From Candidatus Uhrbacteria bacterium (GTDB taxonomy: Bacteria; Patescibacteriota; Patescibacteriia; JACQSD01): a DNA stretch of 43,339 nt. The stretch spans positions 1 to 43,339 of the forward strand of contig JACQSD010000040.1 of NCBI GenBank assembly GCA_016206165.1. Reading direction: 5' to 3'. This document shows, piece after piece, positions 40 to 31,630 of this stretch (its first letter is position 1; the number at the start of each line of letters is the position of its first letter). The notes beneath the pieces were generated by a model, which was given only the letters and a program-made list of their open reading frames with translations, was not told the DNA's origin and did no database searches. The position numbers and the translations under genes are program-made.

Positions 40-726
40 GTGGTTTCCTTCCACCAACGATACGTGAGCGAAGCAATGGTTTTTCATGAGCAGTTTCGCA
101 CTGCTCGTGTTCGTCGTCGTTGGACAATCGAGCGCGCAGCACAAGAACTCTCTATTGCACCTATGTACTTGCAGGCGATTGAAGAAGGGCGATGGTCTTC
201 GCTCCCGGGCGGGCTCTATGCGCGGCAATTCGTGCGGCGCTATGCGGAACTCTTAAATCTCGATCGGAGCGAAATCACTGCGCTCTTTGATGAGACGGCA
301 AGTGCAGCATGGGAGTCGCTTGAACGCCGGCAACTTGATGTCCCACAGATTCCACGAATTGCGTTTTCGCTCTGGCGCATGCTCCGCGTGGTTGGGGGCG
401 TTGCCGTCATTGGAGTCGTTGGATTTTATTTTTGGTCGGTTGGCTCGGCCATGCTTGAGCCGACACTGCTCGAGATCGATCTCCCACAATCCGAAATCGT
501 GATTACGGAACCCACATTTGTCGTGAAAGGGAAGAGCGATGCAGAGGCACAACTTACGGTGAATGGCATGGCATTACCCCTTCGCCCGGATGGGAGCTTC
601 GAAACATCACTCATGCTTCTTGAGGGACAAAATACCATTCGTCTTGTCGCTGAACGAAAGCAACGAAAACAACATGTGATTGAGCGAGTCGTGACGGTAG
701 TGAATCAAATGCAGAATGCAAAATGA
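40..726 (+). CDS. Helix-turn-helix membrane protein (RodZ-like)
   Basis: 228-aa ORF with GTG at 40 (alternative ATG at 76). It has an N-terminal Xre-type HTH (WTIERAAQELSIAPMYLQAIEEGRW), one hydrophobic helix (VVGGVAVIGVVGFYFWSVG) and a beta-rich C-terminal domain. The last codons (NQMQNAK) read into the left inverted repeat of the next cassette. Confidence 0.6.
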   Translation: MVSFHQRYVSEAMVFHEQFRTARVRRRWTIERAAQELSIAPMYLQAIEEGRWSSLPGGLYARQFVRRYAELLNLDRSEITALFDETASAAWESLERRQLDVPQIPRIAFSLWRMLRVVGGVAVIGVVGFYFWSVGSAMLEPTLLEIDLPQSEIVITEPTFVVKGKSDAEAQLTVNGMALPLRPDGSFETSLMLLEGQNTIRLVAERKQRKQHVIERVVTVVNQMQNAK

Positions 727-1134
727 AGAATGCAGAATTATGACGCACAAAGTAAATGATCTGAAAGAACGAACAAAGAAATATGCATTACGAATCATGA
801 AACTTGTCGCATCTCTTCCAAATACAGTATCCGGGAGGATCATTGGGACACAGTTATTTCGGAGCGGGACGTCGACTGCAGCGAACTATCGCGCAGCATG
901 CCGCGCGCGGTCAAGAGCGGATTTTATCTCAAAGATTGGTATCGTCATTGAAGAAACAGATGAGTCTGCGTTTTGGTTGGAGCTTATTATCGATAGCGGA
1001 TTATTGAAAAAGGAATTAGTCGAAGGCCTGTTGCAGGAAACGAATGAGATTCTTGCGATTATGATTTCATCGAGTAATTCCGCGAGAAAAAACAGATAAT
1101 GTATTCTGCATTTTGCATTTTTAATTCTGCATTT
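707..1134. mobile_element. IVS-like cassette: four-helix-bundle gene bounded by 34-bp imperfect terminal inverted repeats
   Basis: The left repeat at 707-740 is AAATGCAGAATGCAAAATGAAGAATGCAGAATTA. The reverse complement of the right repeat at 1101-1134 is AAATGCAGAATTAAAAATGCAAAATGCAGAATAC. By my count 28 of 34 positions are identical. Confidence 0.6.
740..1099 (+). CDS. Four-helix-bundle protein (23S rRNA intervening-sequence / S23p family)
   Basis: Family pattern recalled: LRIMKLV...QLFRSGTSTAANYRAACRARSRADFISKIGIVIEETDESAFWLELI. The ORF-track start at 716 lies inside the flanking repeat, so ATG 740 (MTHKV) is preferred. Confidence 0.8.
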   Translation: MTHKVNDLKERTKKYALRIMKLVASLPNTVSGRIIGTQLFRSGTSTAANYRAACRARSRADFISKIGIVIEETDESAFWLELIIDSGLLKKELVEGLLQETNEILAIMISSSNSARKNR

Positions 1135-1138
1135 ATCT

Positions 1139-5467: not shown

Positions 5468-5606
5468 CCCTGTAGTGAAACTTCGCCCATCAGCTTGCGG
5501 TTGATTGATGAACGACAAGAAAGTGGAAATATTGAAGGACTCAAAAATAATGACATGCTTTATTCTTGGGATCCGTGAGGATCTCAGGCGAAGTTCTACT
5601 ACAGGG
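5468..5606. repeat. 139-nt element with 20-nt terminal inverted repeats (MITE-like, or a long-range 5' UTR helix)
   Basis: CCCTGTAGTGAAACTTCGCC at 5468-5487 pairs with GGCGAAGTTCTACTACAGGG at 5587-5606, giving 19 of 20 pairs including one G.U. The element ends 1 nt before the methyltransferase ATG. Confidence 0.7.
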
Positions 5607-5607
5607 T

Positions 5608-6816
5608 ATGCAGATTTTTTTCATTCTTGGTTCGCATCCTGCACTCTCGATCGCGGAAATTACCGCGGTGCTCACGATGCGACAGATTGCATGGAAGAAT
5701 GTCACATCCTCAAATGAGGCGCTTATTCTTGATGTGCCAAAAGCAGTGGCGATTGACATTGCTTGGTTCGGCGGCGTTATCAAAATAGGTACAATCATCA
5801 CGACCACAACCGTCCGACTTTTGATCCGATCGGATCAAAAGTCGTTCATCACTCTTTTGCATCGCTCGGATGATGCGCGGAGGGTACAGTTTGGCGTGAG
5901 TGTCTACAAAGGGGAACAAGGAGTGCAGGTGGATACGTATAGGGCATTGGGTCAGCGTGTGGGGATGATGACGAAGCAGGCATTGCAGCAGCAAGGAGTC
6001 TCGGTACGGTTTGTGACGTCAAAGGAACGCGTGCTCTCATCGGTCATCGTTACGAAGGAGCATCTCCTCGAGCACGGCGCAGAGTTTGTTTTCATAGTCA
6101 CACGCGATCGTGTGTTCGTTGGGGCGACAACTGCGGTGCAAGCATTTGAAGAGTATGGTGCACGGGATTTTGGGCGCCCTGTTTCTGATGCGCGATCGGG
6201 CATGCTCCCGCCGAAGGTGGCAAAGATGATGGTGAATCTCACGGCAACCTCACCCCGACCCTCTCCTACAAGGAGAGGGGGAGATGTGGTTATTCTCGAT
6301 CCCTTCTGCGGGAGTGGGACCATTCTTCAAGAAGCACTGCTTCTGGGGTATACTGTGATCGGGTCAGATAAATCCCCGTCGGCAATTAAAGATGCAAAAA
6401 AAAACCTTACGTGGTTAAGAAATAATTTCCCAGTATCCCAGTATCCCAGTTTTCAAGTTTTTCAATCAGATATTAGGAAACTGGGAGATTACGTATCGCC
6501 ATCTTCCATTGATGCCATTGTCACTGAACCTTATCTTGGCCCTGCATTGCGTGCAATTCCCACAGAAGATAAATTGAAGCCTGTACTCCAAGAGCTCACG
6601 CAATTGTATGTTGATGCATTTGAAATTTTTTCACGGATCGTGAAACCAGGAGGGCGCGTCGTTTTTATCTTCCCTGTATTTCAAACTACCCCGCCAACCG
6701 CACTCTCGACGTTTGTACTACCGAAGATTACATGGAAACTCGAACAGACATTCCTCTACGGTCGCCCTGGGCAGAAGGTGTGGAGGGAAATTGGAATTTT
6801 TGAACGTAAGAACTAA
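5608..6816 (+). CDS. SAM-dependent RNA methyltransferase (Trm11/UPF0020-like)
   Basis: SAM motif I DPFCGSGTILQEA and motif IV VTEPYLG. The start is taken at MQIFFILGSHPALSIAEI (5608); the ORF track begins at 5566, inside an upstream helix. The gene carries an in-frame family-A repeat (TSPRPSPTRRGGDV). Confidence 0.72.
   Translation: MQIFFILGSHPALSIAEITAVLTMRQIAWKNVTSSNEALILDVPKAVAIDIAWFGGVIKIGTIITTTTVRLLIRSDQKSFITLLHRSDDARRVQFGVSVYKGEQGVQVDTYRALGQRVGMMTKQALQQQGVSVRFVTSKERVLSSVIVTKEHLLEHGAEFVFIVTRDRVFVGATTAVQAFEEYGARDFGRPVSDARSGMLPPKVAKMMVNLTATSPRPSPTRRGGDVVILDPFCGSGTILQEALLLGYTVIGSDKSPSAIKDAKKNLTWLRNNFPVSQYPSFQVFQSDIRKLGDYVSPSSIDAIVTEPYLGPALRAIPTEDKLKPVLQELTQLYVDAFEIFSRIVKPGGRVVFIFPVFQTTPPTALSTFVLPKITWKLEQTFLYGRPGQKVWREIGIFERKN
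6246..6291. repeat. Family-A element, in frame in the methyltransferase CDS
   Basis: AACCTCACCCCGACCCTCTCCTACAAGGAGAGGGGGAGATGTGGTT, translated TSPRPSPTRRGGDVV. Confidence 0.9.
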
Positions 6817-19240: not shown

Positions 19241-19280
19241 GGCGGTCTGTTGCTGAGGACAGACCGCCTCCTTATTTTTT
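19241..19280 (+). terminator. Intrinsic terminator of the 18857 gene
   Basis: GGCGGTCTGT-TGCTGAGG-ACAGACCGCC followed by TCCTTATTTTTT. Confidence 0.85.
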
Positions 19281-19336
19281 CACCTCACCTTCATCCAATT
19301 TTCAAAATTTATAACAAACTGATATACTATTCCACC

Positions 19337-20380
19337 ATGCAGCATCAGTTTGAACAACTCAAAAAAGAGGCACTTGTTGCACTTACTTCCGCACGCGATG
19401 CGGATGCTTTGCGTGCGTGGGAGATTTTGTATTTAGGGAGAAAAGGGAAACTTGCCCAGCTCATGGAAAAGCTTGGAACTCTTTCGGTTGAGGAGAAGAA
19501 AAAGGTGGGGCCCATCGCGAACGCCGTGAAGCAGGAACTTACTCAAGCGATAGAAGTGAAACGCACATCACCTGGAGATGGACGTTCATCTCCAGGAGAT
19601 GGATTTGATACAACGCTCCCCGGCGTTCGTCCACCGCAAGGCCACCTCCATCCGGTGACGCAGGCGATTCAGGAAATTGAAGATATTTTTAGCCGCATAG
19701 GATTTCATCGCGCAAGACATCCAGAGGTTGATACGGATTGGTATGCTTTTGAATCGCTGAATATGCCTGCGGATCATCCGGCACGAGATGAGTGGGAAAC
19801 CTATTTCATAGAATCACCGAATCACAGAAACACAGAATCACAAAAATTAGTACTCACGCCGCACACATCGAATGGGCAGGTGCGGGAGTTAGAAAAGGGA
19901 AAGCTGCCGATTCGCATGGTCAATATCTCAAAATGTTATCGCCGACAATCGGACGTCTCACACGTGCCGATGTTTCACCAATTTGAAGGCGTCTATGTGG
20001 ACGAGCATGTGACGTTTCAACATTTGAAAGGCGTCTTCGAGTATTTTATCCATGAATTTTTTGGCCCGAAACGGACATATCGACTACGCCCGTTCCATTT
20101 CCGGTTTACTGAGCCAAGTGTGGAGGTTGATGTGCAGTGCGATGTCTGCAACGGAACAGGAAAAAATTGTCGCCTCTGTAAAAATGGCTGGCTTGAGCTT
20201 GCGGGCGGCGGCATGATGCATCCAAATGTGTTGAAGGCCGGTGGTGTCGATCCAAAGAAGTACACCGCGTTTGCGTTTGGTTTCGGCGTCGAGCGCTCGT
20301 ATATGATGAAGTCCGGTCTCAAAGTCGACGATATTCGTATTCTTTACAAAAATGATCTTCGCTTCCTCGAGCAATTTTAG
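19337..20380 (+). CDS. pheS: Phenylalanine--tRNA ligase alpha subunit
   Basis: The class II core (RPFHFRFTEPSVEVDV, GFGVERSYM) is present. The start is taken at MQHQFEQLKKE. It carries two in-frame repeat insertions (TSPGDGRSSPGDG and ESPNHRNTESQK). Confidence 0.95.
   Translation: MQHQFEQLKKEALVALTSARDADALRAWEILYLGRKGKLAQLMEKLGTLSVEEKKKVGPIANAVKQELTQAIEVKRTSPGDGRSSPGDGFDTTLPGVRPPQGHLHPVTQAIQEIEDIFSRIGFHRARHPEVDTDWYAFESLNMPADHPARDEWETYFIESPNHRNTESQKLVLTPHTSNGQVRELEKGKLPIRMVNISKCYRRQSDVSHVPMFHQFEGVYVDEHVTFQHLKGVFEYFIHEFFGPKRTYRLRPFHFRFTEPSVEVDVQCDVCNGTGKNCRLCKNGWLELAGGGMMHPNVLKAGGVDPKKYTAFAFGFGVERSYMMKSGLKVDDIRILYKNDLRFLEQF
19566..19601. repeat. Family-B palindrome, in frame in pheS
   Basis: CATCACCTGGAGATG, then GACGTT, then CATCTCCAGGAGATG, translated TSPGDGRSSPGDG. 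Confidence 0.9.
19811..19845. repeat. AATCAC/ACAGAA word block, in frame in pheS
   Basis: GAATCACCGAATCACAGAAACACAGAATCACAAAA, translated ESPNHRNTESQK. It contains the 21-mer CACAGAAACACAGAATCACAA (19823-19843), which is also present in pheT. Confidence 0.9.
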
Positions 20381-21233
20381 CAAGCTGTTGATTGTTCGCA
20401 CTGCGCATGTTTTCTATGTTGCACTCGTTCTTTTTGTCGCACTTCTCTTTGTCGCGCCGCATTCTTTTATTTCTCCGGACATCGGAGGTACAATTTTAAC
20501 AATCACCACATTCCTCTTTGGGTTCATCGCGGGGTTTTATATTCTCCTGACAGCGACAGATTATAATACACTCAAGGGCTTGCTCGCGAATGAAACAGCA
20601 TCATGGATTGTTTTACACCAATACGTCACATTGTATATGCCAAGAACAGTATCCGCATTTACTGCACTTCTTGATACATACCTTCGTCGTGCATTTGATT
20701 TTGAAATTATTGATTATGCGCGCGGAACACAAGCGGAATTCGAACCAATGCGAGCGTGGGTGAATGCGTTACAACCAAAAAAGGGCATCGAGTACATTCA
20801 TGAAAATATTCAGGAGACAATGCAGGGAATTATTATCGGAAGACAGCAGCTCACCGTTCTCGGAACAAAAACACTCTCACTCTTTCAGTGGATGGTTCTT
20901 TGTACGCTCGCTGCGCTCGTTATTTTTTCATTGTATGGGGTACGCTCCGGAGAACTTTTTTTCGACATTGTTACGGTCTTAATCTCCAGTTCAGTCGTTT
21001 TGATATTACTCGTGATCCGCGATCTGGACCTTTATTTATGGAATGAAAAGACATTTGGCTATGACATTTTTGAAAATTTATTTAAAGCGATTGGGCAGCA
21101 GGCGTACTATCCGGAGGAGTCAATTCAAAAGGGGAGAATTCATCCGACAGAAGAGACGTATCGTGTTGGCGTCGTTACGAATCGACACACACTCGAGCGG
21201 CGGATTGATGTAGTGACGCAAAAGAAAATATGA
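20352..21233 (+). CDS. Hypothetical integral membrane protein (possibly DUF4239-like)
   Basis: There are two N-terminal and two C-terminal hydrophobic helices around a soluble helical core. The start is uncertain: ATG 20352 overlaps the pheS end by 29 nt. Confidence 0.55.
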   Translation: MIFASSSNFSKLLIVRTAHVFYVALVLFVALLFVAPHSFISPDIGGTILTITTFLFGFIAGFYILLTATDYNTLKGLLANETASWIVLHQYVTLYMPRTVSAFTALLDTYLRRAFDFEIIDYARGTQAEFEPMRAWVNALQPKKGIEYIHENIQETMQGIIIGRQQLTVLGTKTLSLFQWMVLCTLAALVIFSLYGVRSGELFFDIVTVLISSSVVLILLVIRDLDLYLWNEKTFGYDIFENLFKAIGQQAYYPEESIQKGRIHPTEETYRVGVVTNRHTLERRIDVVTQKKI

Positions 21234-23734
21234 ATCTTCTCGTTTCGTATAATTGGTTGAAGGAGTTTGTTGCTATCAAACAGTCGCCGGAAAAAGTGGC
21301 GGAGTTGTTGAGTTTGCATGCGTTGTCCGCAGAACGCCTGTATCACATTGCGAAGCAAATGGACAAGATGGTCATTGGGAAGGTCGTGAAGACGGAAAAA
21401 CATCCAAATGCGGATAAGCTTTCTCTGAATCAGGTTGATGTTGGTGGTAAAACAGTGCAGATTGTTTGTGGTGCGCCAAATGTGCATGCAGGAATGCTTG
21501 TTGCAGTTGCGTTGCCGGGTGCAAGAGTTCGTTGGCATGGCGAAGGGGATTTGGTCACACTTTCCGCGACAAAAATCCGTGGCATCGAAAGTTTTGGTAT
21601 GATGTGTGCCGCGAATGAGATTGGACTTGAAAAATATCCGGATGCCGCGAAAGGGATTATTGATCTCTCGTGGTTGCAATATACAGAGAACGGGTCTCTG
21701 GATTCCAGAGACCCGTTCTCTGGAGTTCGACCGGGGATGTCGCTCGTCAAAGCACTCGACATGGATGATGTGCTTATGGATGTGGAGGTGACATCGAATC
21801 GGCCCGATGCCATGTCGATTGTTGGGGTTGCACGCGAGGTCGCCGCTGTTCTGAATGCGAAGTTGAGCTTACCTACCTCTCCCCAACCCTCTCCTACTAG
21901 GAGAGGGAGTAAGGGTGAGGTTCCGATCTCGCTTTCCGTGGATATCCGTGCTAAAAAGTTATGCACGCGGTTTGCCGCGATTGCGATTGATGGCGTGAAG
22001 GTGGGCCCATCGCCATGGTGGATACAGAAGCGATTGTTCATGGCTGGGCTTCGTCCTATCAATAATATTGTCGACATTACGAATTACGTCATGCTCGAGC
22101 AGGGGAAGCCGTTGCACGCGTTTGATGCTGATAAGATCACTGAATCATTGAATCACGGAATCACGGAATCACACATTATTGTCCGAACTGCGCAGAAAGG
22201 GGAGTCGTTGAAGGCACTCGATGGAAGAATATATCCGCTTACGGAATCCATGCTTGTTGTCGCGGACGCGCAACGTTCACTCGCGATCGCAGGTGTCATG
22301 GGTGGTGAAGCAACCGGTGTAACAGAAAAAACAAAAACAATTATTTTTGAATCCGCAGTTTTTGATCCAGTTTCTATCCGTCACACGGCGCGTGCATTGA
22401 ATCTCCATTCCGAGGCATCGAATCTTTTTGAAAAAGGCTTGTCGGACGAATCCGTGCTCCCTGCGCTTGCCCGTGCGGTGGAGTTGACACTTGAGATTGC
22501 GGGAGGACAGGTGGCGTCGAAACTTGTTGACACACGAACACAGAAACACAGAATCACAAGAATCATTTTGAAATCGAAAACAATCGAACGGATGCTTGGC
22601 ATTACCCTTTCGGTGAAAGATGTTGTTCGCTACCTCACCGCACTCGGTTTTAACATCGAAGCAACGAGCAAGAAGCAACGAGCAAGAAGCTGGCGCGTGA
22701 CCGCGCCATGGTGGCGCCATCACGATGTGACCATTGAAGCAGATCTCGTCGAAGAAATTGCGCGGTTCTATGGTTATCACCATCTCCCATCGAAACTCCC
22801 CGATGGTCCACTTGCGACGCAAGATGCAACCGACAAAAAAATATTTTTCTGGGAGCGTCGCGTCAAAGAGCTGCTTCGTGGTGCAGGGTATACCGAAACC
22901 ATGAGCTATTCGTTTACATCCGAAGCAGCGATTCAAAAACTTGGACTTGATCCGGCGCAGTCGATCCGCATTGTGAATCCGCTCACCGATGATCATGCAT
23001 ATCTCCGCCCACGCCCGATTGCTGCACTCCTTGAGATTGTGAGCGCAAATCAAAATGATCGCGATCATATTCACATTTTTGAACTTGCGCGGATGTTCCG
23101 TCCGCGTGTGGGGAAACTTCCTGATGAGCCTCTCCGTCTCGCTGGTGCAGTCGTATCCGCGGACGTATTTCGCGAGGCAAAAGGTACTGTGGAATTATTT
23201 TTGCATGGCATGGGGATTGCTTCGCAGCGGATCAGTTTTCCAGAGTATATGGAAGACGAGTTTGCGCCATGGGTAGATACGCGCCGGAGCGTGCGCATTA
23301 TGATTGACAACGAGAAGTTTGGTTCGGTGATCATGCTGACGGAAAAAGCGCGCAAAAATTTTGATCTTAAGCAAGATGTTGCGCTGTTTCGGATACGGTT
23401 CGAGGAATTGACTGCGCTTGCGACGACCACGCATGGATATACGCCGTTGCCAAAGTATCCGCCCGTACTCCGCGACCTTGCGTTTATTGTGCCGAAGACC
23501 GTGACGTACGCCGCGATTGACGCCGTGCTTCGGAAGCAAGCGCTCGTCACGTCGGTTGAACTCTTTGATCTCTATGAAGGCGAAAAGATTGGTGCGGATA
23601 AAAAGAGTCTCGCGTTTCACGTCACCTATCAATCACCTGAACGAACGCTCACGATCGCGGAGGTGGATGTCGTACAGGAGGCGATGATTAAGGAACTCGA
23701 AAAAAAGTTTGGGGCACAATTGAGGGATTTTTGA
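21230..23734 (+). CDS. pheT: Phenylalanine--tRNA ligase beta subunit
   Basis: N-terminal tRNA-binding OB (KHPNADKLSLNQVDVGG), the B3/B4 and B5 regions, and a C-terminal FDX-ACB-like end. The ATGA overlap with the previous gene is present. It carries at least four in-frame repeat insertions. Confidence 0.95.
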   Translation: MNLLVSYNWLKEFVAIKQSPEKVAELLSLHALSAERLYHIAKQMDKMVIGKVVKTEKHPNADKLSLNQVDVGGKTVQIVCGAPNVHAGMLVAVALPGARVRWHGEGDLVTLSATKIRGIESFGMMCAANEIGLEKYPDAAKGIIDLSWLQYTENGSLDSRDPFSGVRPGMSLVKALDMDDVLMDVEVTSNRPDAMSIVGVAREVAAVLNAKLSLPTSPQPSPTRRGSKGEVPISLSVDIRAKKLCTRFAAIAIDGVKVGPSPWWIQKRLFMAGLRPINNIVDITNYVMLEQGKPLHAFDADKITESLNHGITESHIIVRTAQKGESLKALDGRIYPLTESMLVVADAQRSLAIAGVMGGEATGVTEKTKTIIFESAVFDPVSIRHTARALNLHSEASNLFEKGLSDESVLPALARAVELTLEIAGGQVASKLVDTRTQKHRITRIILKSKTIERMLGITLSVKDVVRYLTALGFNIEATSKKQRARSWRVTAPWWRHHDVTIEADLVEEIARFYGYHHLPSKLPDGPLATQDATDKKIFFWERRVKELLRGAGYTETMSYSFTSEAAIQKLGLDPAQSIRIVNPLTDDHAYLRPRPIAALLEIVSANQNDRDHIHIFELARMFRPRVGKLPDEPLRLAGAVVSADVFREAKGTVELFLHGMGIASQRISFPEYMEDEFAPWVDTRRSVRIMIDNEKFGSVIMLTEKARKNFDLKQDVALFRIRFEELTALATTTHGYTPLPKYPPVLRDLAFIVPKTVTYAAIDAVLRKQALVTSVELFDLYEGEKIGADKKSLAFHVTYQSPERTLTIAEVDVVQEAMIKELEKKFGAQLRDF
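21870..21922. repeat. Family-A element, in frame in pheT
   Basis: TACCTACCTCTCCCCAACCCTCTCCTACTAGGAGAGGGAGTAAGGGTGAGGTT, translated LPTSPQPSPTRRGSKGEV. Confidence 0.9.
22150..22173. repeat. 8-nt tandem GAATCACG x3, in frame in pheT
   Basis: GAATCACG GAATCACG GAATCACA, translated within TESLNHGITESH. Confidence 0.9.
22531..22567. repeat. ACACAGAA/AATCAC word block, in frame in pheT
   Basis: It contains the 21-mer CACAGAAACACAGAATCACAA at 22539-22559. The 21-mer is identical to the pheS copy but is read in a different frame (TQKHRIT instead of HRNTESQ). Confidence 0.9.
22661..22690. repeat. Exact 14-nt tandem GCAACGAGCAAGAA x2 (+GC), in frame in pheT
   Basis: The 30-nt block is translated ATSKKQRARS. 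The 14-nt period is not a multiple of 3. Confidence 0.9.
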
Positions 23735-23840: not shown

Positions 23841-23866
23841 GCACGATCGATCATAACCCCACTTTG

Positions 23867-23930
23867 CCTCCCCTTACCACAGTACCAGAGCAGTGCTCGG
23901 TACGTGGCAAGTCTTCAGGGGAGGGTTTTT
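23867..23930 (+). terminator. Long hairpin terminator after pheT
   Basis: The outer stem CCTCCCCT...AGGGGAGG has an inner CCACAGTACC...GGTACGTGG and is followed by TTTTT. Confidence 0.65.
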
Positions 23931-23944
23931 GGTCTTGCGCGGGA

Positions 23945-23973
23945 ATGACAAGTTGGTATGATGGGAGTATTCA
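23945..23973 (+). promoter_or_regulatory. Putative dnaE promoter
   Basis: ATGACA-N17-TATTCA, located after the pheT terminator. Confidence 0.35.
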
Positions 23974-23975
23974 AG

Positions 23976-24011
23976 AACCTCATCCCAGCCTTCTCCTAGA
24001 AGGAGAAGGAG
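23976..24011. repeat. Family-A element directly upstream of the dnaE start
   Basis: AACCTCATCCCAGCCTTCTCCTAGAAGGAGAAGGAG. Its right inner arm is the only SD-like sequence before ATG 24020. Confidence 0.9.
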
Positions 24012-24019
24012 ATCCAGAT

Positions 24020-27000
24020 ATGTCCTTCGTGCATTTGCATACTCACTCCCATTACTCACTCCTCGACGGGCTTGCGAAGATCCCGGATCTTGTCGCGCGT
24101 GCGAAAGAACTTGGCATGACTGCACTCGCACTCACCGATCATGGCGCGATGTATGGCGCGATTGAATTTTATCAGGCATGTCTGAAGGCAGGAATCAAAC
24201 CAATCATTGGTGAAGAAATGTACGTCGCTCCACACGGGCATCAACAAAAACGCGCGCAGATCGATGAGAAGCGGTTTCATCTCATTCTCCTTGCAAAGAA
24301 TAACACTGGCTACAAAAATCTTATCAAACTCACAACTGCTGCACATCTTGAAGGATTTTATTATAAACCTCGCATTGATCTTGAACTCCTCCAGCGATAC
24401 CACGAGGGGCTCATTGCGCTTTCTGCATGTCAGTCAGGCGAGGTCGGCGAGGCAGCAGAGACGGGTGACGTTGAGGCGACCATGAAAGTCGCGGAGAAGT
24501 ATCGCGCGGTCTTTGGTGACGATTATTATCTTGAAGTACAGCCGCACCCCAGACTCCCCGGGCGTATCACTGCGAACAATACGATTTTTGAAGTAGGGAA
24601 GCGCTTGCAGGTTCCGATCATCGCGACGTACGACAGCCATTATTTGCATCCCGAAGATGCGGACGCGCAGGATATTCTTTTATGTTTGCAAACAAAGAAA
24701 ACAAAAGATGATCCAAATCGAATGTCGATGGCGAACGAAGACTTCTCGCTTGCGTCGCCCGAAGCGATGATCGCGGCATTTCCGGATCATCCGGAGGTGA
24801 TTGCAAATACGCTTGCGGTTGCTGAAAAATGCAATGTAACCATTGAACTTGGGAAGACCACATTACCGCGCTATGCGTTACCAGAAGGAAAGACGGTCGA
24901 TGGATATTTACGAGAGTTGTGTGAACAAGGGATTCCAAAGCGGTATCCGCAGCTAGCAGCTAGCAGCCAGCAGCTAGCAGCAGTGGAGGCGCGACTCGAC
25001 TATGAACTCGGAGTGATCACGAAAACGGGGTTTGCTTCCTATTTTTTAATTGTCCAAGATTTTGTGAACTGGGCGAAAGATCATGGGATTGTGGTTGGGC
25101 CTGGGCGTGGGAGTGCGGCGGGGTCGATCGTGTCGTATCTTTTAAATATCACGAATCTTGATCCGCTTGCGTACGAGCTTGTTTTTGAGCGGTTCTTGAA
25201 TCCTGAACGTATCTCGATGCCAGATATTGATCTTGATTTTGCGGACACGCGGCGGGATGAAGTGCTCCGTTATGTCGAAGAAAAATATGGCCGTGATCAC
25301 GTGGCGCAGATTATTACGTTTGGGACCATGGCAGCACGTGCGGCAATTCGCGATGTTGGTCGCGTTTTAGGCATATCCTATGCGACATGCGATAAAATTG
25401 CGAAGCTGATCCCCATGTTTATGGAGCTCGACGAGGCATTGAACACAGTGCCGGAATTGAAGAGTATGGTTGCGACAGATCCCGAAGTAAAGCAGTTCCT
25501 CGATGCGTCACGAAAACTTGAAGGCGTTGCGCGGCATGCGTCCACGCATGCATGTGGCGTTGTCATTACCCCAGAACCACTCCAAGAATACGTCCCACTC
25601 CAATACGCGAGTGCGTCGGACGAATCCATTATCTCACAGTACTCGCTCCACCCTGTTGAAGATCTTGGACTATTGAAAATGGATTTTCTTGGATTGACCA
25701 ATCTTACGCTCATTGAAACATGCATTGATATCTTAAAAAAGATGCACGGCATTGACATCAACATTGATACGATTCCGCTCGATGACGCAAACGCATTCAA
25801 ACTCCTCCAAGACGGATTAACCACGGGGGTATTTCAACTTGAATCATCGGGCATGACTCGGTATTTGAAATTATTAAAACCATCGTCACTTGAAGATATC
25901 ATTGCCATGGTCGCGCTCTACCGCCCGGGCCCCATGGAACTCATCCCCGATTTTATTAATGGGAAACACGGAAAAAAGAAGGTGACCTATATTCATCCAA
26001 AATTAAAACCGATTCTTGAAAAAACATACGGTGTCGCGGTGTATCAGGAGCAAGTGCTCCAAATTGCCCGCGATCTCGCCGGGTTTACCTTAGGTGAAGC
26101 TGACGTCCTCCGCAAGGCGGTTGGGAAAAAAATTGCGAAGTTGTTGAATGAACAGAAAGAAAAATTTGTGAAGGGATGTATTGCAAATGGACTCGCTGAG
26201 TCAACAGCGATTAAAATTTTTGAATTTATCGAACCATTCGCTGGGTATGGTTTTAACCGCGCGCACGCCGCATGTTATGCCCTCCTTGCCTATCAAACGG
26301 CATATTTGAAGGCGAACTATCCGACCGAATTTATGACTGCCCTTCTTACTGCGGAGCAGGGCGATGTTGATCGTGCGTCAAAGCTCGTGAACGAATGCCG
26401 CGCAATGGGTATCACCGTACTCCCGCCTGATATCAATGAAAGCTACTCCACATACACGGCGGTGAAGGATGCGGCAACACCGACGATTCGGTTTGGGCTC
26501 CTCGCGATTAAAAACATGGGAGAGAACGTGGTAAAAGCACTCATTCATGAGCGGAAAGCGAAGGGGCAATACGTGTCGCTCCAAGATATGTTGACGCGTG
26601 TGCATCATAAAGATTTGAATAAAAAATCACTCGAAAGTCTCATTCGCTCTGGATCACTCGATCGGTTTGGAGAACGAAATCAATTACTTGTCAACATCGA
26701 GACGCTCCTTTCTTTCAATCGTCGTGCGGTTGGAGAGGCGTCGAATGGGCAAACAAGCTTGTTTGCTGGCGCAGCATCAAGTGTGACCGCGCTCACGTTG
26801 CATCCTGTGGAGCCGGTATCGCGCATGCAATCGCTCGCGTGGGAGCGCGAACTCCTTGGCCTCTATATTACCGAGCATCCACTCGACACGTATCGTGATC
26901 GCATCCCGAGTGGTACAACCACCATTGCAGCGCTCAAAGAATCAAAAGCGACCACAACGGTGACCATTGCCGCGATTGTGATGACAATGCGCCGTATTAT

Positions 27001-31553: not shown

Positions 31554-31630
31554 ATCACTCACGAATTACGAATCACATACGAATTCACGAATTCGTAAAT
31601 TCGTATCGTATTCGTATTTTCGTTAGTGAT
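31554..31630. repeat. ~77-nt imperfect palindrome of ACGAAT/ATTCGT and AATCAC words between thrS and the MFS gene
   Basis: It is centred on ACGAA|TTCGT at 31590/31591. The arms are ATCACTCACGAATTACGAATCACATACGAATTCACGAA and TTCGTAAATTCGTATCGTATTCGTATTTTCGTTAGTGAT. Confidence 0.85.

What the first reader, a model, noticed from the sequence alone, without database searches (positions are those of the whole stretch)
19823..22559. Identical 21-mer inside pheS and pheT, read in different frames
CACAGAAACACAGAATCACAA occurs at 19823-19843 in pheS, where it reads HRNTESQ. It also occurs at 22539-22559 in pheT, where it reads (T)QKHRIT(R). Identical nucleotides with different translations show that the shared unit is DNA, not a protein motif. 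Related AATCAC-type words recur at 22150-22173 (GAATCACG x3, in frame) and in the thrS-MFS spacer palindrome (31554-31630). pheT also holds an exact 14-nt tandem repeat (22661-22690) whose period is not a multiple of 3, yet the 30-nt block preserves the frame. dnaE (24950-24983) and the methyltransferase (6428-6450) hold similar word blocks.
Basis: seen in the sequence. Interest (0 to 1): 0.65.

Follow-up and report, generated by a model that had tools for sequence, protein, structure and literature searches.

The report
Translated 8-base repeat arrays in essential genes
The 21 bases shared by pheS and pheT are two copies of a short repeat of an 8-base unit that is scattered through this tiny Patescibacteria genome, flanks small four-helix-bundle gene cassettes, and is translated inside loops of many essential enzymes.

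Summary
CACAGAAACACAGAATCACAA lies at 19823-19843 (pheS) and 22539-22559 (pheT), read in different frames. The pair is not special. Both copies belong to the genome's commonest short tandem repeat, (N-GAA-W-CAC) octamers in arrays of about 3-5 units, found at 27 loci. Of 351 array pairs, 21 share at least 21 exact bases.

The family is translated as permutations of RITESQNH in PheS, PheT (twice), ValS (twice), LeuS, PolA, a GyrB-like protein, RecR, TsaD and TrmD. Genome-wide, period-7, -8 and -9 arrays are 5-8 times more frequent than in shuffles, and 83 arrays lie deep inside 54 large ORFs.

The same octamers form the inverted arms around a PF05635 (23S-rRNA-IVS/Avd-like) gene on another contig. 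They also form hairpins that enclose no ORF. A second such cassette, with AATGCAG arms, lies in the window at 708-1134.

Units that contain stop codons occur only between genes, while stop-free units lie mostly inside genes. Relatives carry arrays in the same loops, but with different units.

I read this as dispersed, DNA-level repeats that selection tolerates in permissive loops. How they are copied is unknown. It is a new variant of the known heptamer-repeat and IVS elements.

The parts
19806..19842 (+). Octamer array in pheS (AGAATCAC CGAATCAC AGAAACAC AGAATCAC AA), translated as IESPNHRNTESQ. It holds 21-mer copy 1 (19823-19843).
   Evidence: It lies in a variable loop that is a 9-residue gap against P. 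aeruginosa PheS 4p71. The same array, unit by unit, is in L054, a more distant family member.
22136..22172 (+). Octamer array in pheT loop A (TGAATCAT TGAATCAC GGAATCAC GGAATCAC), translated as ITESLNHGITESH. Net gain of 24 nt (8 aa).
   Evidence: Absent from L053 (76% identical PheT), L054, L002 and most other orthologues.
22537..22570 (+). Octamer array in pheT loop B, holding 21-mer copy 2 (22539-22559) and ending ...AAGAATCATTTT. Translated as RTQKHRITRII. No length change against any orthologue.
   Evidence: L053 has a decayed octamer array (AAGAACAA x3.4) at the same place.
22658..22690 (+). 7/14-nt array in pheT loop C (GAAGCAA CGAGCAA x2.4), translated as EATSKKQRARS.
   Evidence: L053 (CACGCTT), L054 (CTATCAA/CTAACAA) and L002 (AGTTACC x4.9) each have a different heptamer array here, all of the same loop length and 5 aa longer than most genomes outside the family.
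24949..24981 (+). Heptamer array GCAGCTA x4.7 in dnaE, translated as PQLAASSQQLAA. The single variant unit GCAGCCA removes what would be an in-frame TAG.
   Evidence: L053 has AATGCAG x3.6 at the same place.
6428..6450 (+). Octamer array TCCCAGTA x2.9 inside a methyltransferase ORF (5566-6816), translated as FPVSQYPS.
   Evidence: Not compared with orthologues.
708..738 (+). Left arm (AATGCAG x4.4) of a PF05635 cassette. It abuts the start of the four-helix-bundle gene.
716..1099 (+). PF05635 (23S_rRNA_IVP, four-helix-bundle, Avd-like) gene between an HTH (helix-turn-helix, RodZ-like) gene and recA.
   Evidence: 52.1 bits; 52.4 bits, cut-off 33.8.
1103..1134 (+). Right arm (ATTTTGC x4.6, the inverted complement of the left arm). 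It ends 5 nt before the recA start codon.
   Evidence: The two arms pair in the RNA fold.
31554..31630 (+). ORF-less hairpin in the thrS-MFS spacer, with arms built from ACGAAT-type words.
   Evidence: z = -6.8. L053 has a hairpin with TAGTTACC arms in the same spacer.

Best explanation
The 21-mer is a fragment of a dispersed, genome-specific family of short tandem DNA repeats: (N-GAA-W-CAC) octamers in arrays of about 3-5 units, roughly 25-37 nt. The organism is a Patescibacteria (CPR, Candidate Phyla Radiation) bacterium with a genome of about 0.84 Mb.

The family is one of at least five such families with 7-9-nt units in this genome. Each family occurs in three forms: (i) as the two inverted arms around a small PF05635 four-helix-bundle gene inserted between genes, the architecture of ORF-bearing 23S-rRNA intervening sequences; (ii) as hairpins that enclose no ORF and fill spacers; (iii) as solo arrays.

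Shown: solo arrays lie at many sites, including inside essential genes, where they are read through as part of the protein. Only versions that are stop-free and keep the frame are found there. They sit in loops whose length varies between lineages.

Inferred: arrays reach new sites, or overwrite older arrays at the same sites, by DNA-level copying from other members of the family. This could be gene conversion or template switching, possibly promoted by the cassette. Local slippage then adjusts the unit number. Selection removes every copy that breaks a gene.

On this reading the pheS-pheT identity reflects common family membership. It is not a functional link between the two subunits.
For: Excess over chance: 152, 100, 108 and 51 arrays of period 7, 8, 9 and 14, against about 18, 21, 20 and 5 in third-order Markov shuffles.

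One family at many loci: GAAWCA[C/A/T] octamer arrays at 27 loci. The three-unit pattern gives 29 hits against 0 for the reversed control, and 0 in the two other genomes of the family. 21 of 351 pairs share at least 21 nt exactly.

Translation in essential genes: RITESQNH permutations in PheS, PheT x2, a GyrB-like protein, RecR, TsaD, TrmD, PolA, ValS x2 and LeuS. 83 arrays lie deep inside 54 ORFs of at least 200 aa.

Link to cassettes: all four PF05635 hits in the genome have 7-9-nt (one 14-nt) arrays on both sides, inverted in the three full-length genes. The one at C5:10614-10973 is flanked by this octamer family, and its right arm holds 18 contiguous bases of the 21-mer. The cassette in the window forms a stem of about 30 bp. 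ORF-less hairpins use the same arms, for example C79:9333-9394.

Selection filter: units with stops on both strands are only intergenic or at ORF edges (AAATCCT 7/7 intergenic; AAACTCT 4 intergenic, 2 edge). Stop-free families lie mostly in ORFs (10/15, 8/10, 6/8, 5/6). Antisense GTGATTCT has TGA in every frame, and in-gene copies are almost all in the sense orientation. In dnaE the only variant unit removes an in-frame TAG.

History: one clean 24-nt gain (pheT loop A). The pheS array is shared with L054, including its variant third unit. Four relatives have different heptamers of equal length in pheT loop C. The AATGCAG family is present in L053 and in 8 of 121 genomes of the class (this genome included), but in L053 at different sites.

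Published precedent: the Coxiella IVS has 3-4 tandem heptamers just before the S23p start codon, inside a 28-bp stem cut by RNase III (PMC4990558).
Against: No copying enzyme or mechanism is identified. The genome has no reverse transcriptase (but it is only 83% complete). The three Y1-transposase homologues have no arrays of these families next to them. No target-site duplication or conserved flank marks an insertion event. The pheS array has not been homogenised since two genera split, so at least some arrays are inert fossils. Local slippage alone explains the 3 x 8 gain in pheT loop A. My gene calls are crude (longest ORFs, chosen greedily), so the ORF versus spacer counts are approximate. 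No read or strain data were available to show ongoing activity.
Confidence: 0.75

Rival explanations
1. Independent local replication slippage. Each array arose in place as an ordinary simple-sequence repeat, and the pheS-pheT identity is convergence.
For: pheT loop A is exactly three extra 8-nt units. Variants are often locally uniform within one array, for example TGAATCAC x3 at C19 and AGAAACAC x4 at C26. An excess of heptamer repeats in bacteria has been tied to polymerase slippage in the literature (cited in PMC4679880).
Against: The same unit family occurs at 27 loci, against 0 hits for the reversed control and 0 in the two sister genomes. About two thirds of random octamers would be stop-free (my estimate), so selection does not force this particular unit. 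The families match the cassette arms. Unit number is capped below 5 in spacers as well as in ORFs. The AGAAACAC-AGAATCAC order recurs at 6 loci, against 2 for the reverse order.
Confidence: 0.15
2. A specific local gene conversion. The pheT tract at 22537-22570 was copied from the pheS array 2.7 kb upstream, which would explain the exact 21-nt identity.
For: The pheS array is old, with its variant third unit shared with L054, whereas the pheT loop B tract is close to the family consensus only in this genome. The site shows no length change, as conversion would give.
Against: pheS shares 22 nt with an array on another contig (C35), and 20 other pairs share at least 21 nt, so pheS is not singled out as the donor. 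The C5 cassette arm also carries 18 bases of the 21-mer.
Confidence: 0.1
3. The arrays are selected for function, either as peptide modules (RITESQNH and the like) or as mRNA or translation signals inside the genes.
For: The arrays persist at the same loop positions in several related genomes. IESPNH is conserved between this genome and L054.
Against: Units at a given site differ completely between relatives. The same DNA is read in all three frames, and the same units fill spacers and cassette arms. The loops are absent or shorter in most lineages and in solved PheS structures. Unit families that contain stops exist only outside genes, which points to tolerance rather than selection for a peptide.
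Confidence: 0.05
4. An assembly or binning artefact of a metagenome-assembled genome.
For: The genome is a draft of 92 contigs, 83% complete, and no reads could be examined.
Against: All arrays keep long essential ORFs open. Independent assemblies of relatives have arrays at the same loops, and one has the same pheS array. Repeats of about 30 nt are shorter than a sequencing read.
Confidence: 0.02

Closest known systems
ORF-bearing 23S rRNA intervening sequences (IVS) encoding S23p/PF05635, e.g. Coxiella burnetii (PMC4990558)
   Same: A PF05635 four-helix-bundle ORF enclosed by inverted repeats that form a stem of about 28-30 bp. Three to four tandem heptamers lie directly before the ORF's start codon. 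Heptamer number varies between strains. ORF-less versions exist.
   Different: Here the cassettes sit between protein-coding genes, not in helix 45 of 23S rRNA. The arm units form dispersed families with tens of extra copies. Solo arms are translated inside essential genes. RNase III cutting has not been shown here; only the RNase III gene is present.
Intergenic heptamer direct repeats: TAACTGA of marine Beggiatoaceae, Cyanobacteria and Bacteroidetes (PMC4679880); cyanobacterial STRR; Xanthomonas/Nostoc GGGAATC-type repeats (PMC4692102)
   Same: Tandem repeats of a 7-nt unit, two to six units per set, in hundreds of sets. Many end next to a start codon. Orientation inside ORFs is limited by stop codons. 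Patchy phylogenetic spread suggests transfer.
   Different: Those genomes have one dominant unit, almost all of it intergenic or at the ends of ORFs. This genome has at least five families with 7-9-nt units. About half of the arrays lie deep inside ORFs, including aminoacyl-tRNA synthetases and DNA polymerases. No link to PF05635 cassettes is made in that paper (no mention of 'four helix' or 'intervening sequence').
Rickettsia palindromic elements (RPE) inserted in frame in protein-coding genes (Ogata et al., Science 2000; from my own knowledge, not checked here)
   Same: Selfish repeated DNA that is tolerated and translated within essential proteins of a reduced genome, at positions compatible with the fold.
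   Different: RPEs are palindromes of about 100-150 bp read as one peptide family. Here the elements are tandem arrays of about 30 nt with 7-9-nt units, read in any frame. This genome also has separate palindromic in-frame inserts (21684-21722, 19566-19601).
Diversity-generating retroelements with Avd (a PF05635-like accessory protein; PMC10053308)
   Same: A homologous four-helix-bundle protein. A short tract in a target gene is overwritten without a change of length.
   Different: No reverse transcriptase was found in the genome, and there are no template/variable repeat pairs. The targets are housekeeping genes and spacers.

Membership tests
Prokaryotic heptamer-class simple sequence repeats (STRR / TAACTGA type) | Head-to-tail direct repeats of a 6-9-nt unit, a few units per set, far more frequent than chance | tested here: met
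   periods 7, 8 and 9 are 5-8 times more frequent than in Markov shuffles. The modal array is about 4.4 units.
Prokaryotic heptamer-class simple sequence repeats (STRR / TAACTGA type) | Overwhelmingly intergenic, one dominant unit per genome | tested here: not met
   83 arrays lie deep inside 54 large ORFs. There are at least five unit families, led by AATCACAG (15 arrays), AATGCAG (10) and AAATCCT (10).
S23p/PF05635 IVS-type stem-loop cassette | ORF of family PF05635 above the curated cut-off | tested here: met
   (130, 87.4 and 52.1 bits; cut-off 33.8); for window 716-1099.
S23p/PF05635 IVS-type stem-loop cassette | ORF enclosed by inverted repeats that form a long stem, with tandem heptamers just before the start codon | tested here: met
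   Compare the Coxiella description in PMC4990558.
S23p/PF05635 IVS-type stem-loop cassette | Located inside the 23S rRNA gene and excised from the precursor by RNase III | tested here: not met
   All three full-length cassettes lie between protein-coding genes (window: HTH gene - cassette - recA). Excision is not testable here. An RNase III gene is present.
The finding's own arrays (pheS, pheT) as parts of such a cassette | A paired inverted arm and/or a PF05635 ORF next to the array | tested here: not met
   The pheS and pheT arrays are solo, all in the sense orientation, with no inverted partner nearby. They share only the unit family with the C5 cassette arms.
REP/REPIN elements mobilised by RAYT (Y1 transposase) | Palindromic REP units flanking or associated with a Y1-transposase gene | tested here: not met
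   Three PF01797 homologues exist, but no arrays of these families lie beside them. The arrays are direct repeats, not palindromes.
Phase-variable contingency loci | Changes in unit number that switch a gene on or off, typically in surface or virulence genes | tested here: inconclusive
   The hosts are essential housekeeping genes and every array is in frame, which argues against switching. Length polymorphism could not be measured.
Diversity-generating retroelement | Reverse transcriptase gene together with an Avd-like gene | tested here: not met
   No PF00078 match in the genome. Caveat: the assembly is 83% complete.

The most novel reading that the evidence does not exclude
Each PF05635 (Avd-like) four-helix-bundle cassette and its own family of 7-9-nt units form a self-propagating system. 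The protein would recognise its cognate tandem unit, in DNA or RNA, and promote copying of arrays of about 30 nt into new sites. It would also overwrite older arrays without changing their length. This would explain why related genomes keep arrays at the same loops of PheT and DnaE and in the same thrS-MFS spacer, but with entirely different units of equal length. It would also explain why essential genes across Patescibacteria are peppered with translated repeats. If so, it would give PF05635 proteins outside retroelements their first function and identify a new kind of mobile DNA.
Probability: 0.15. Interest if true: 0.85.

Novelty: new variant of a known kind. Interest (0 to 1): 0.6.

Why it matters
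About one in sixteen of the roughly 880 ORFs I called in this reduced genome (54) carries a translated array of about 30 nt whose unit length is not a multiple of three. The carriers include four aminoacyl-tRNA synthetase genes, both DNA polymerases (PolA, DnaE), a gyrase-like protein and RecR. This shows how much selfish or mutational repeat DNA essential proteins can absorb. It also warns annotators and phylogeneticists that such loops are not homologous protein sequence. And it links two poorly understood things in one genome: the bacterial excess of heptamer repeats and the PF05635 'intervening sequence' proteins. The three states found here (cassette with ORF, empty hairpin, solo array in a gene) make the origin and spread of both testable. 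My paper searches found no description of this in Patescibacteria. Earlier AI notes of this scan report the same pattern in other Patescibacteria genomes, so it seems to be a trait of the group, not of this genome alone.

Tried and rejected

2. Strain variants: a gapped pattern across pheT loop A found nothing in metagenome contigs.

Only 22 kb and 14 kb of them could be analysed.

4. Reverse transcriptase / DGR idea: no PF00078 match.

5. RAYT/REP idea: Y1-transposase homologues exist but are not associated with arrays.

6. Looked for a conserved flank or target-site duplication around the 27 octamer arrays. None was found. Several arrays end in GAATCAT-TT, as does the left arm of the C5 cassette, but this is not universal.

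7. Tested whether AATGCAG arrays in other genomes sit next to relatives of this genome's PF05635 genes. Only one weak hit in six loci, so this is inconclusive.

8. A peptide-motif explanation was rejected (different frames, spacer copies, no conservation in orthologues).

9. No structure prediction was run. The alignment to a solved PheS sufficed to place the array in a loop.


Full report
OBSERVATION. The 21-mer CACAGAAACACAGAATCACAA occurs exactly twice in the window, at 19823-19843 and 22539-22559 on the + strand. None is expected by chance, and no further copy appears even with three mismatches. These are also its only two copies in the whole 836-kb, 92-contig genome. The first copy lies in the pheS ORF (19250-20380) in codon phase 1 and reads HRNTESQ. 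The second lies in pheT (21230-23734) in phase 2 and reads (T)QKHRIT(R).

WHAT THE 21-MER BELONGS TO. Both copies sit in tandem arrays of an 8-nt unit, N-GAA-W-CAC. The pheS array at 19806-19842 has 4.6 units. The pheT array at 22537-22558 has 2.8 units and continues to about 22570. The block at 22136-22172 in pheT is a third array of the same unit.

Genome-wide this is the commonest unit of period 7-9. Arrays of it lie at 27 loci. A three-unit pattern gives 29 overlapping hits, against none for the reversed control and none in the two other genomes held for the same family.

Among the 351 pairs of these arrays, 21 share at least 21 exact bases. The ValS, LeuS and PolA arrays share 28-29, and the pheS array shares 22 with an array on another contig. 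The pheS-pheT identity is therefore what membership of one repeat family gives. It is not a link between the two subunit genes.

Because the unit is 8 nt long, three successive units pass through all three reading frames. 'Different frames' therefore gives circular permutations of one octapeptide, RITESQNH.

THE GENOME-WIDE HABIT. Names attached to PheT homologues place the organism in Patescibacteria, with several hits labelled Uhrbacteria. The genome holds 152, 100, 108 and 51 non-overlapping arrays of period 7, 8, 9 and 14. Third-order Markov shuffles give about 18, 21, 20 and 5.

Heptamer arrays peak sharply at 30-32 nt, about 4.4 units. Almost none reaches 5 units, in spacers as well as in ORFs. 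Arrays inside ORFs are more concentrated at 4 units, which is one unit plus three and so keeps the frame.

By a crude ORF call (coding fraction 0.90), 83 arrays of period 7, 8, 14 or 16 lie deep inside 54 ORFs of at least 200 aa. The octamer family alone is translated in PheS, PheT (twice), a GyrB-like topoisomerase subunit, RecR, TsaD, TrmD, DNA polymerase I, ValS (twice) and LeuS.

Other families give their own recurring peptides:
- AATGCAG gives MQNAECR.
- AGCCAGA gives ARSQKPE.
- AATTTCC gives QFPIPNS.

LINK TO FOUR-HELIX-BUNDLE CASSETTES. Earlier AI notes from other genomes suggested a link to PF05635 genes, so I tested it here. The genome has three full PF05635 (23S_rRNA_IVP) genes and one fragment. 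All four have 7-9-nt tandem arrays (one of period 14) on both sides, and in the three full-length genes the two arms are inverted.

The gene at C5:10614-10973 is bracketed by the very octamer family of this finding. Read on the other strand, its right arm is CACAGAAACACAGAATCAAAAAAACACAGAATCAC, which holds 18 contiguous bases of the 21-mer.

The gene in the window (716-1099; PF05635 at 52.4 bits) lies between an HTH (helix-turn-helix, RodZ-like) gene and recA. It is bracketed by AATGCAG x4.4 (708-738) and the inverted ATTTTGC x4.6 (1103-1134). In an RNA fold these two arms pair into a stem of about 30 bp that closes the ORF.

Twelve inverted pairs of arrays exist. Two enclose a PF05635 ORF, and most of the rest are tight hairpins with no ORF. 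One of these, C79:9333-9394, has the same arms as the window's cassette.

This is the architecture published for the Coxiella burnetii 23S rRNA intervening sequence. That element has an S23p ORF with three to four tandem heptamers directly before its start codon, inside a 28-bp terminal stem cut by RNase III, and the heptamer number varies between strains (PMC4990558). An RNase III gene is present here. PF05635 is also the family that resembles the Avd protein of diversity-generating retroelements (PMC10053308), but no reverse transcriptase is found in this 83%-complete genome.

EVIDENCE THAT SELECTION FILTERS A DNA-LEVEL PROCESS.
- Units with stop codons on both strands are found only between genes or at ORF edges: AAATCCT in 7 of 7 arrays intergenic; AAACTCT in 4 intergenic and 2 at ORF edges.
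- Stop-free families lie mostly deep in ORFs (10/15, 8/10, 6/8, 5/6). That is close to the 90% coding fraction.
- The antisense octamer GTGATTCT has TGA in every frame. In-gene copies are almost all in the sense orientation.
- In dnaE a perfect GCAGCTA array would read ...AGC TAG. The single imperfect unit (GCAGCCA) is exactly the one that removes this stop.

HISTORY FROM ORTHOLOGUES. I compared PheS, PheT and DnaE with 13-19 genomes of the class. I also compared them with two closer relatives fetched through their PheT proteins: L053 (76% identical PheT, syntenic) and L054 (59%).

(a) pheT 22136-22172 is a clean net gain of 24 nt, three units. It is absent from L053, L054, L002 and most others, so it is recent.

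(b) The pheS array is old. L054 has AGAATCAC CAAATCAC AAAAACAA AAAATCAC at the same codons, including the variant third unit. L053 has an unrelated loop 36 aa longer at that place, and G002 has CTACAAA x4.3. Against P. aeruginosa PheS (4p71) the array is a 9-residue insertion in the loop before the conserved THTS motif.

(c) The pheT site that carries the 21-mer has the same length in every orthologue. L053 has a decayed octamer array (AAGAACAA x3.4) there.

(d) At pheT loop C all four members of the family have a different heptamer array of the same total length: GAAGCAA/CGAGCAA here, CACGCTT, CTATCAA/CTAACAA and AGTTACC.

(e) At the dnaE site L053 has AATGCAG x3.6 where this genome has GCAGCTA x4.7.

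(f) The thrS-MFS spacer holds a hairpin in both genomes, with different units.

So array sites persist while unit sequences are replaced wholesale. Unit families outlive genera but move between sites. AATGCAG arrays occur in L053 and in 8 of 121 genomes of the class (this genome included), patchily across six families, with no hits for the control.

MECHANISM: SHOWN AND INFERRED. Shown: the arrays are DNA repeats of a few genome-specific families. They form cassette arms, empty hairpins and solo arrays. Inside genes only versions that are stop-free and keep the frame exist, in variable loops.

Inferred: arrays are copied between loci. Sharing of one family at 27 loci cannot be explained by stop avoidance, since about two thirds of random octamers would be stop-free (my estimate). 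The recurrent AGAAACAC-AGAATCAC order (6 loci, against 2 for the reverse order) suggests copying from a common template. Local slippage adjusts the unit number, and in ORFs only steps of three units survive.

The enzyme is unknown. Three Y1-transposase homologues exist but have no arrays of these families beside them. No conserved flank or target duplication was seen.

The boldest reading that the data allow is that each PF05635 protein promotes the spread of its own unit family. I give this about 15%.

COMPARISON WITH WHAT IS KNOWN. Heptamer repeats are known from cyanobacteria (STRR), from marine Beggiatoaceae and others (TAACTGA: 169 sets of 2-6 units, mostly ending just before a start codon, rarely and peripherally in ORFs; PMC4679880), and from Xanthomonas and Nostoc (PMC4692102). 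ORF-bearing IVS elements with heptamer-built stems are known from 23S rRNA genes.

What differs here is the combination:
- several unit families in one genome;
- cassettes placed between protein-coding genes;
- dense, translated colonisation of internal loops of essential enzymes.

My searches of the held literature found no description of this in Patescibacteria. The nearest parallel for the coding aspect is the in-frame Rickettsia palindromic elements (my own knowledge, not checked). I class the finding as a new variant of a known kind.

LIMITS. No reads or near-identical strains could be examined, so present-day activity is untested. ORF calls are approximate. The genome is incomplete. Only parts of the two nearest relatives were available.

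Noticed in passing
window 21684-21722: A perfect palindrome (19-nt arms, 1 nt between: CAGAGAACGGGTCTCTGGA / TCCAGAGACCCGTTCTCTG) is the core of a 45-nt, 15-aa in-frame insertion in PheT (…LQYTENGSLDSRDPFSG…). The insertion is absent from L053, L054 and nearly all of the other orthologues compared (one has a shorter, unrelated insertion at that place).
   Followed up: partly
window 19566-19601: An 18-nt-arm palindrome (89% complementary) inside pheS is translated as TSPGDGRSSPGDG. The peptide TSPGD also occurs twice in a Y1-transposase-like protein on contig C13, which suggests a second, palindromic repeat family that is read in frame.
   Followed up: partly
window 21860-21925 (pheT loop D): A palindromic CCCTCTCC...GGAGAGGG element is translated as PTSPQPSPTRRGSKGEV. 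Near-identical peptides occur in ValS (SPQPSPKGRGRKSP...GEGEGEV) and in a C-terminal processing protease (TTSPQPSPMRRGRP) on other contigs. In G002 the same loop holds AACTTAC x4.7 instead.
   Followed up: partly
window 706-1137: A complete PF05635 (23S-rRNA-IVS/Avd-like) gene cassette with inverted AATGCAG-type arms is wedged between a RodZ-like HTH gene and recA. The arms touch the neighbouring stop and start codons.
   Followed up: yes
L053:7552-8694 (pheS of the nearest relative): PheS of the nearest relative carries a loop 36 aa longer (…RSSKSERNSVGSNESAASAGAIEPQRSGGMLGGARGGSMNSTQ…) exactly where this genome has the octamer array. Its origin was not examined.
   Followed up: no
genome contig C35:2020-2088: A whole hairpin (AATGCAG x4.4 plus the inverted ATTCTTC x3.7, 12 nt apart) lies in frame deep inside a 623-aa ORF, read as QMQNAECRMQN...ILHSSFFIL. 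Both arms of an element can therefore be translated.
   Followed up: no
window 23864-24020: The longest dnaE ORF starts 52 codons before the start used by L053 (MSFVHLHTH...). The extra N-terminal stretch contains ...PHPSLLLEGEGDP..., which resembles the translated palindromic element, so the true start is probably the ATG near 24020.
   Followed up: no
genome contigs C58:6752-7222, C13:13570-14307, C78:17356-18078: Three Y1-transposase (PF01797, RAYT/IS200-like) homologues are present in a 0.84-Mb genome. They may mobilise the palindromic repeat families rather than the tandem arrays.
   Followed up: partly
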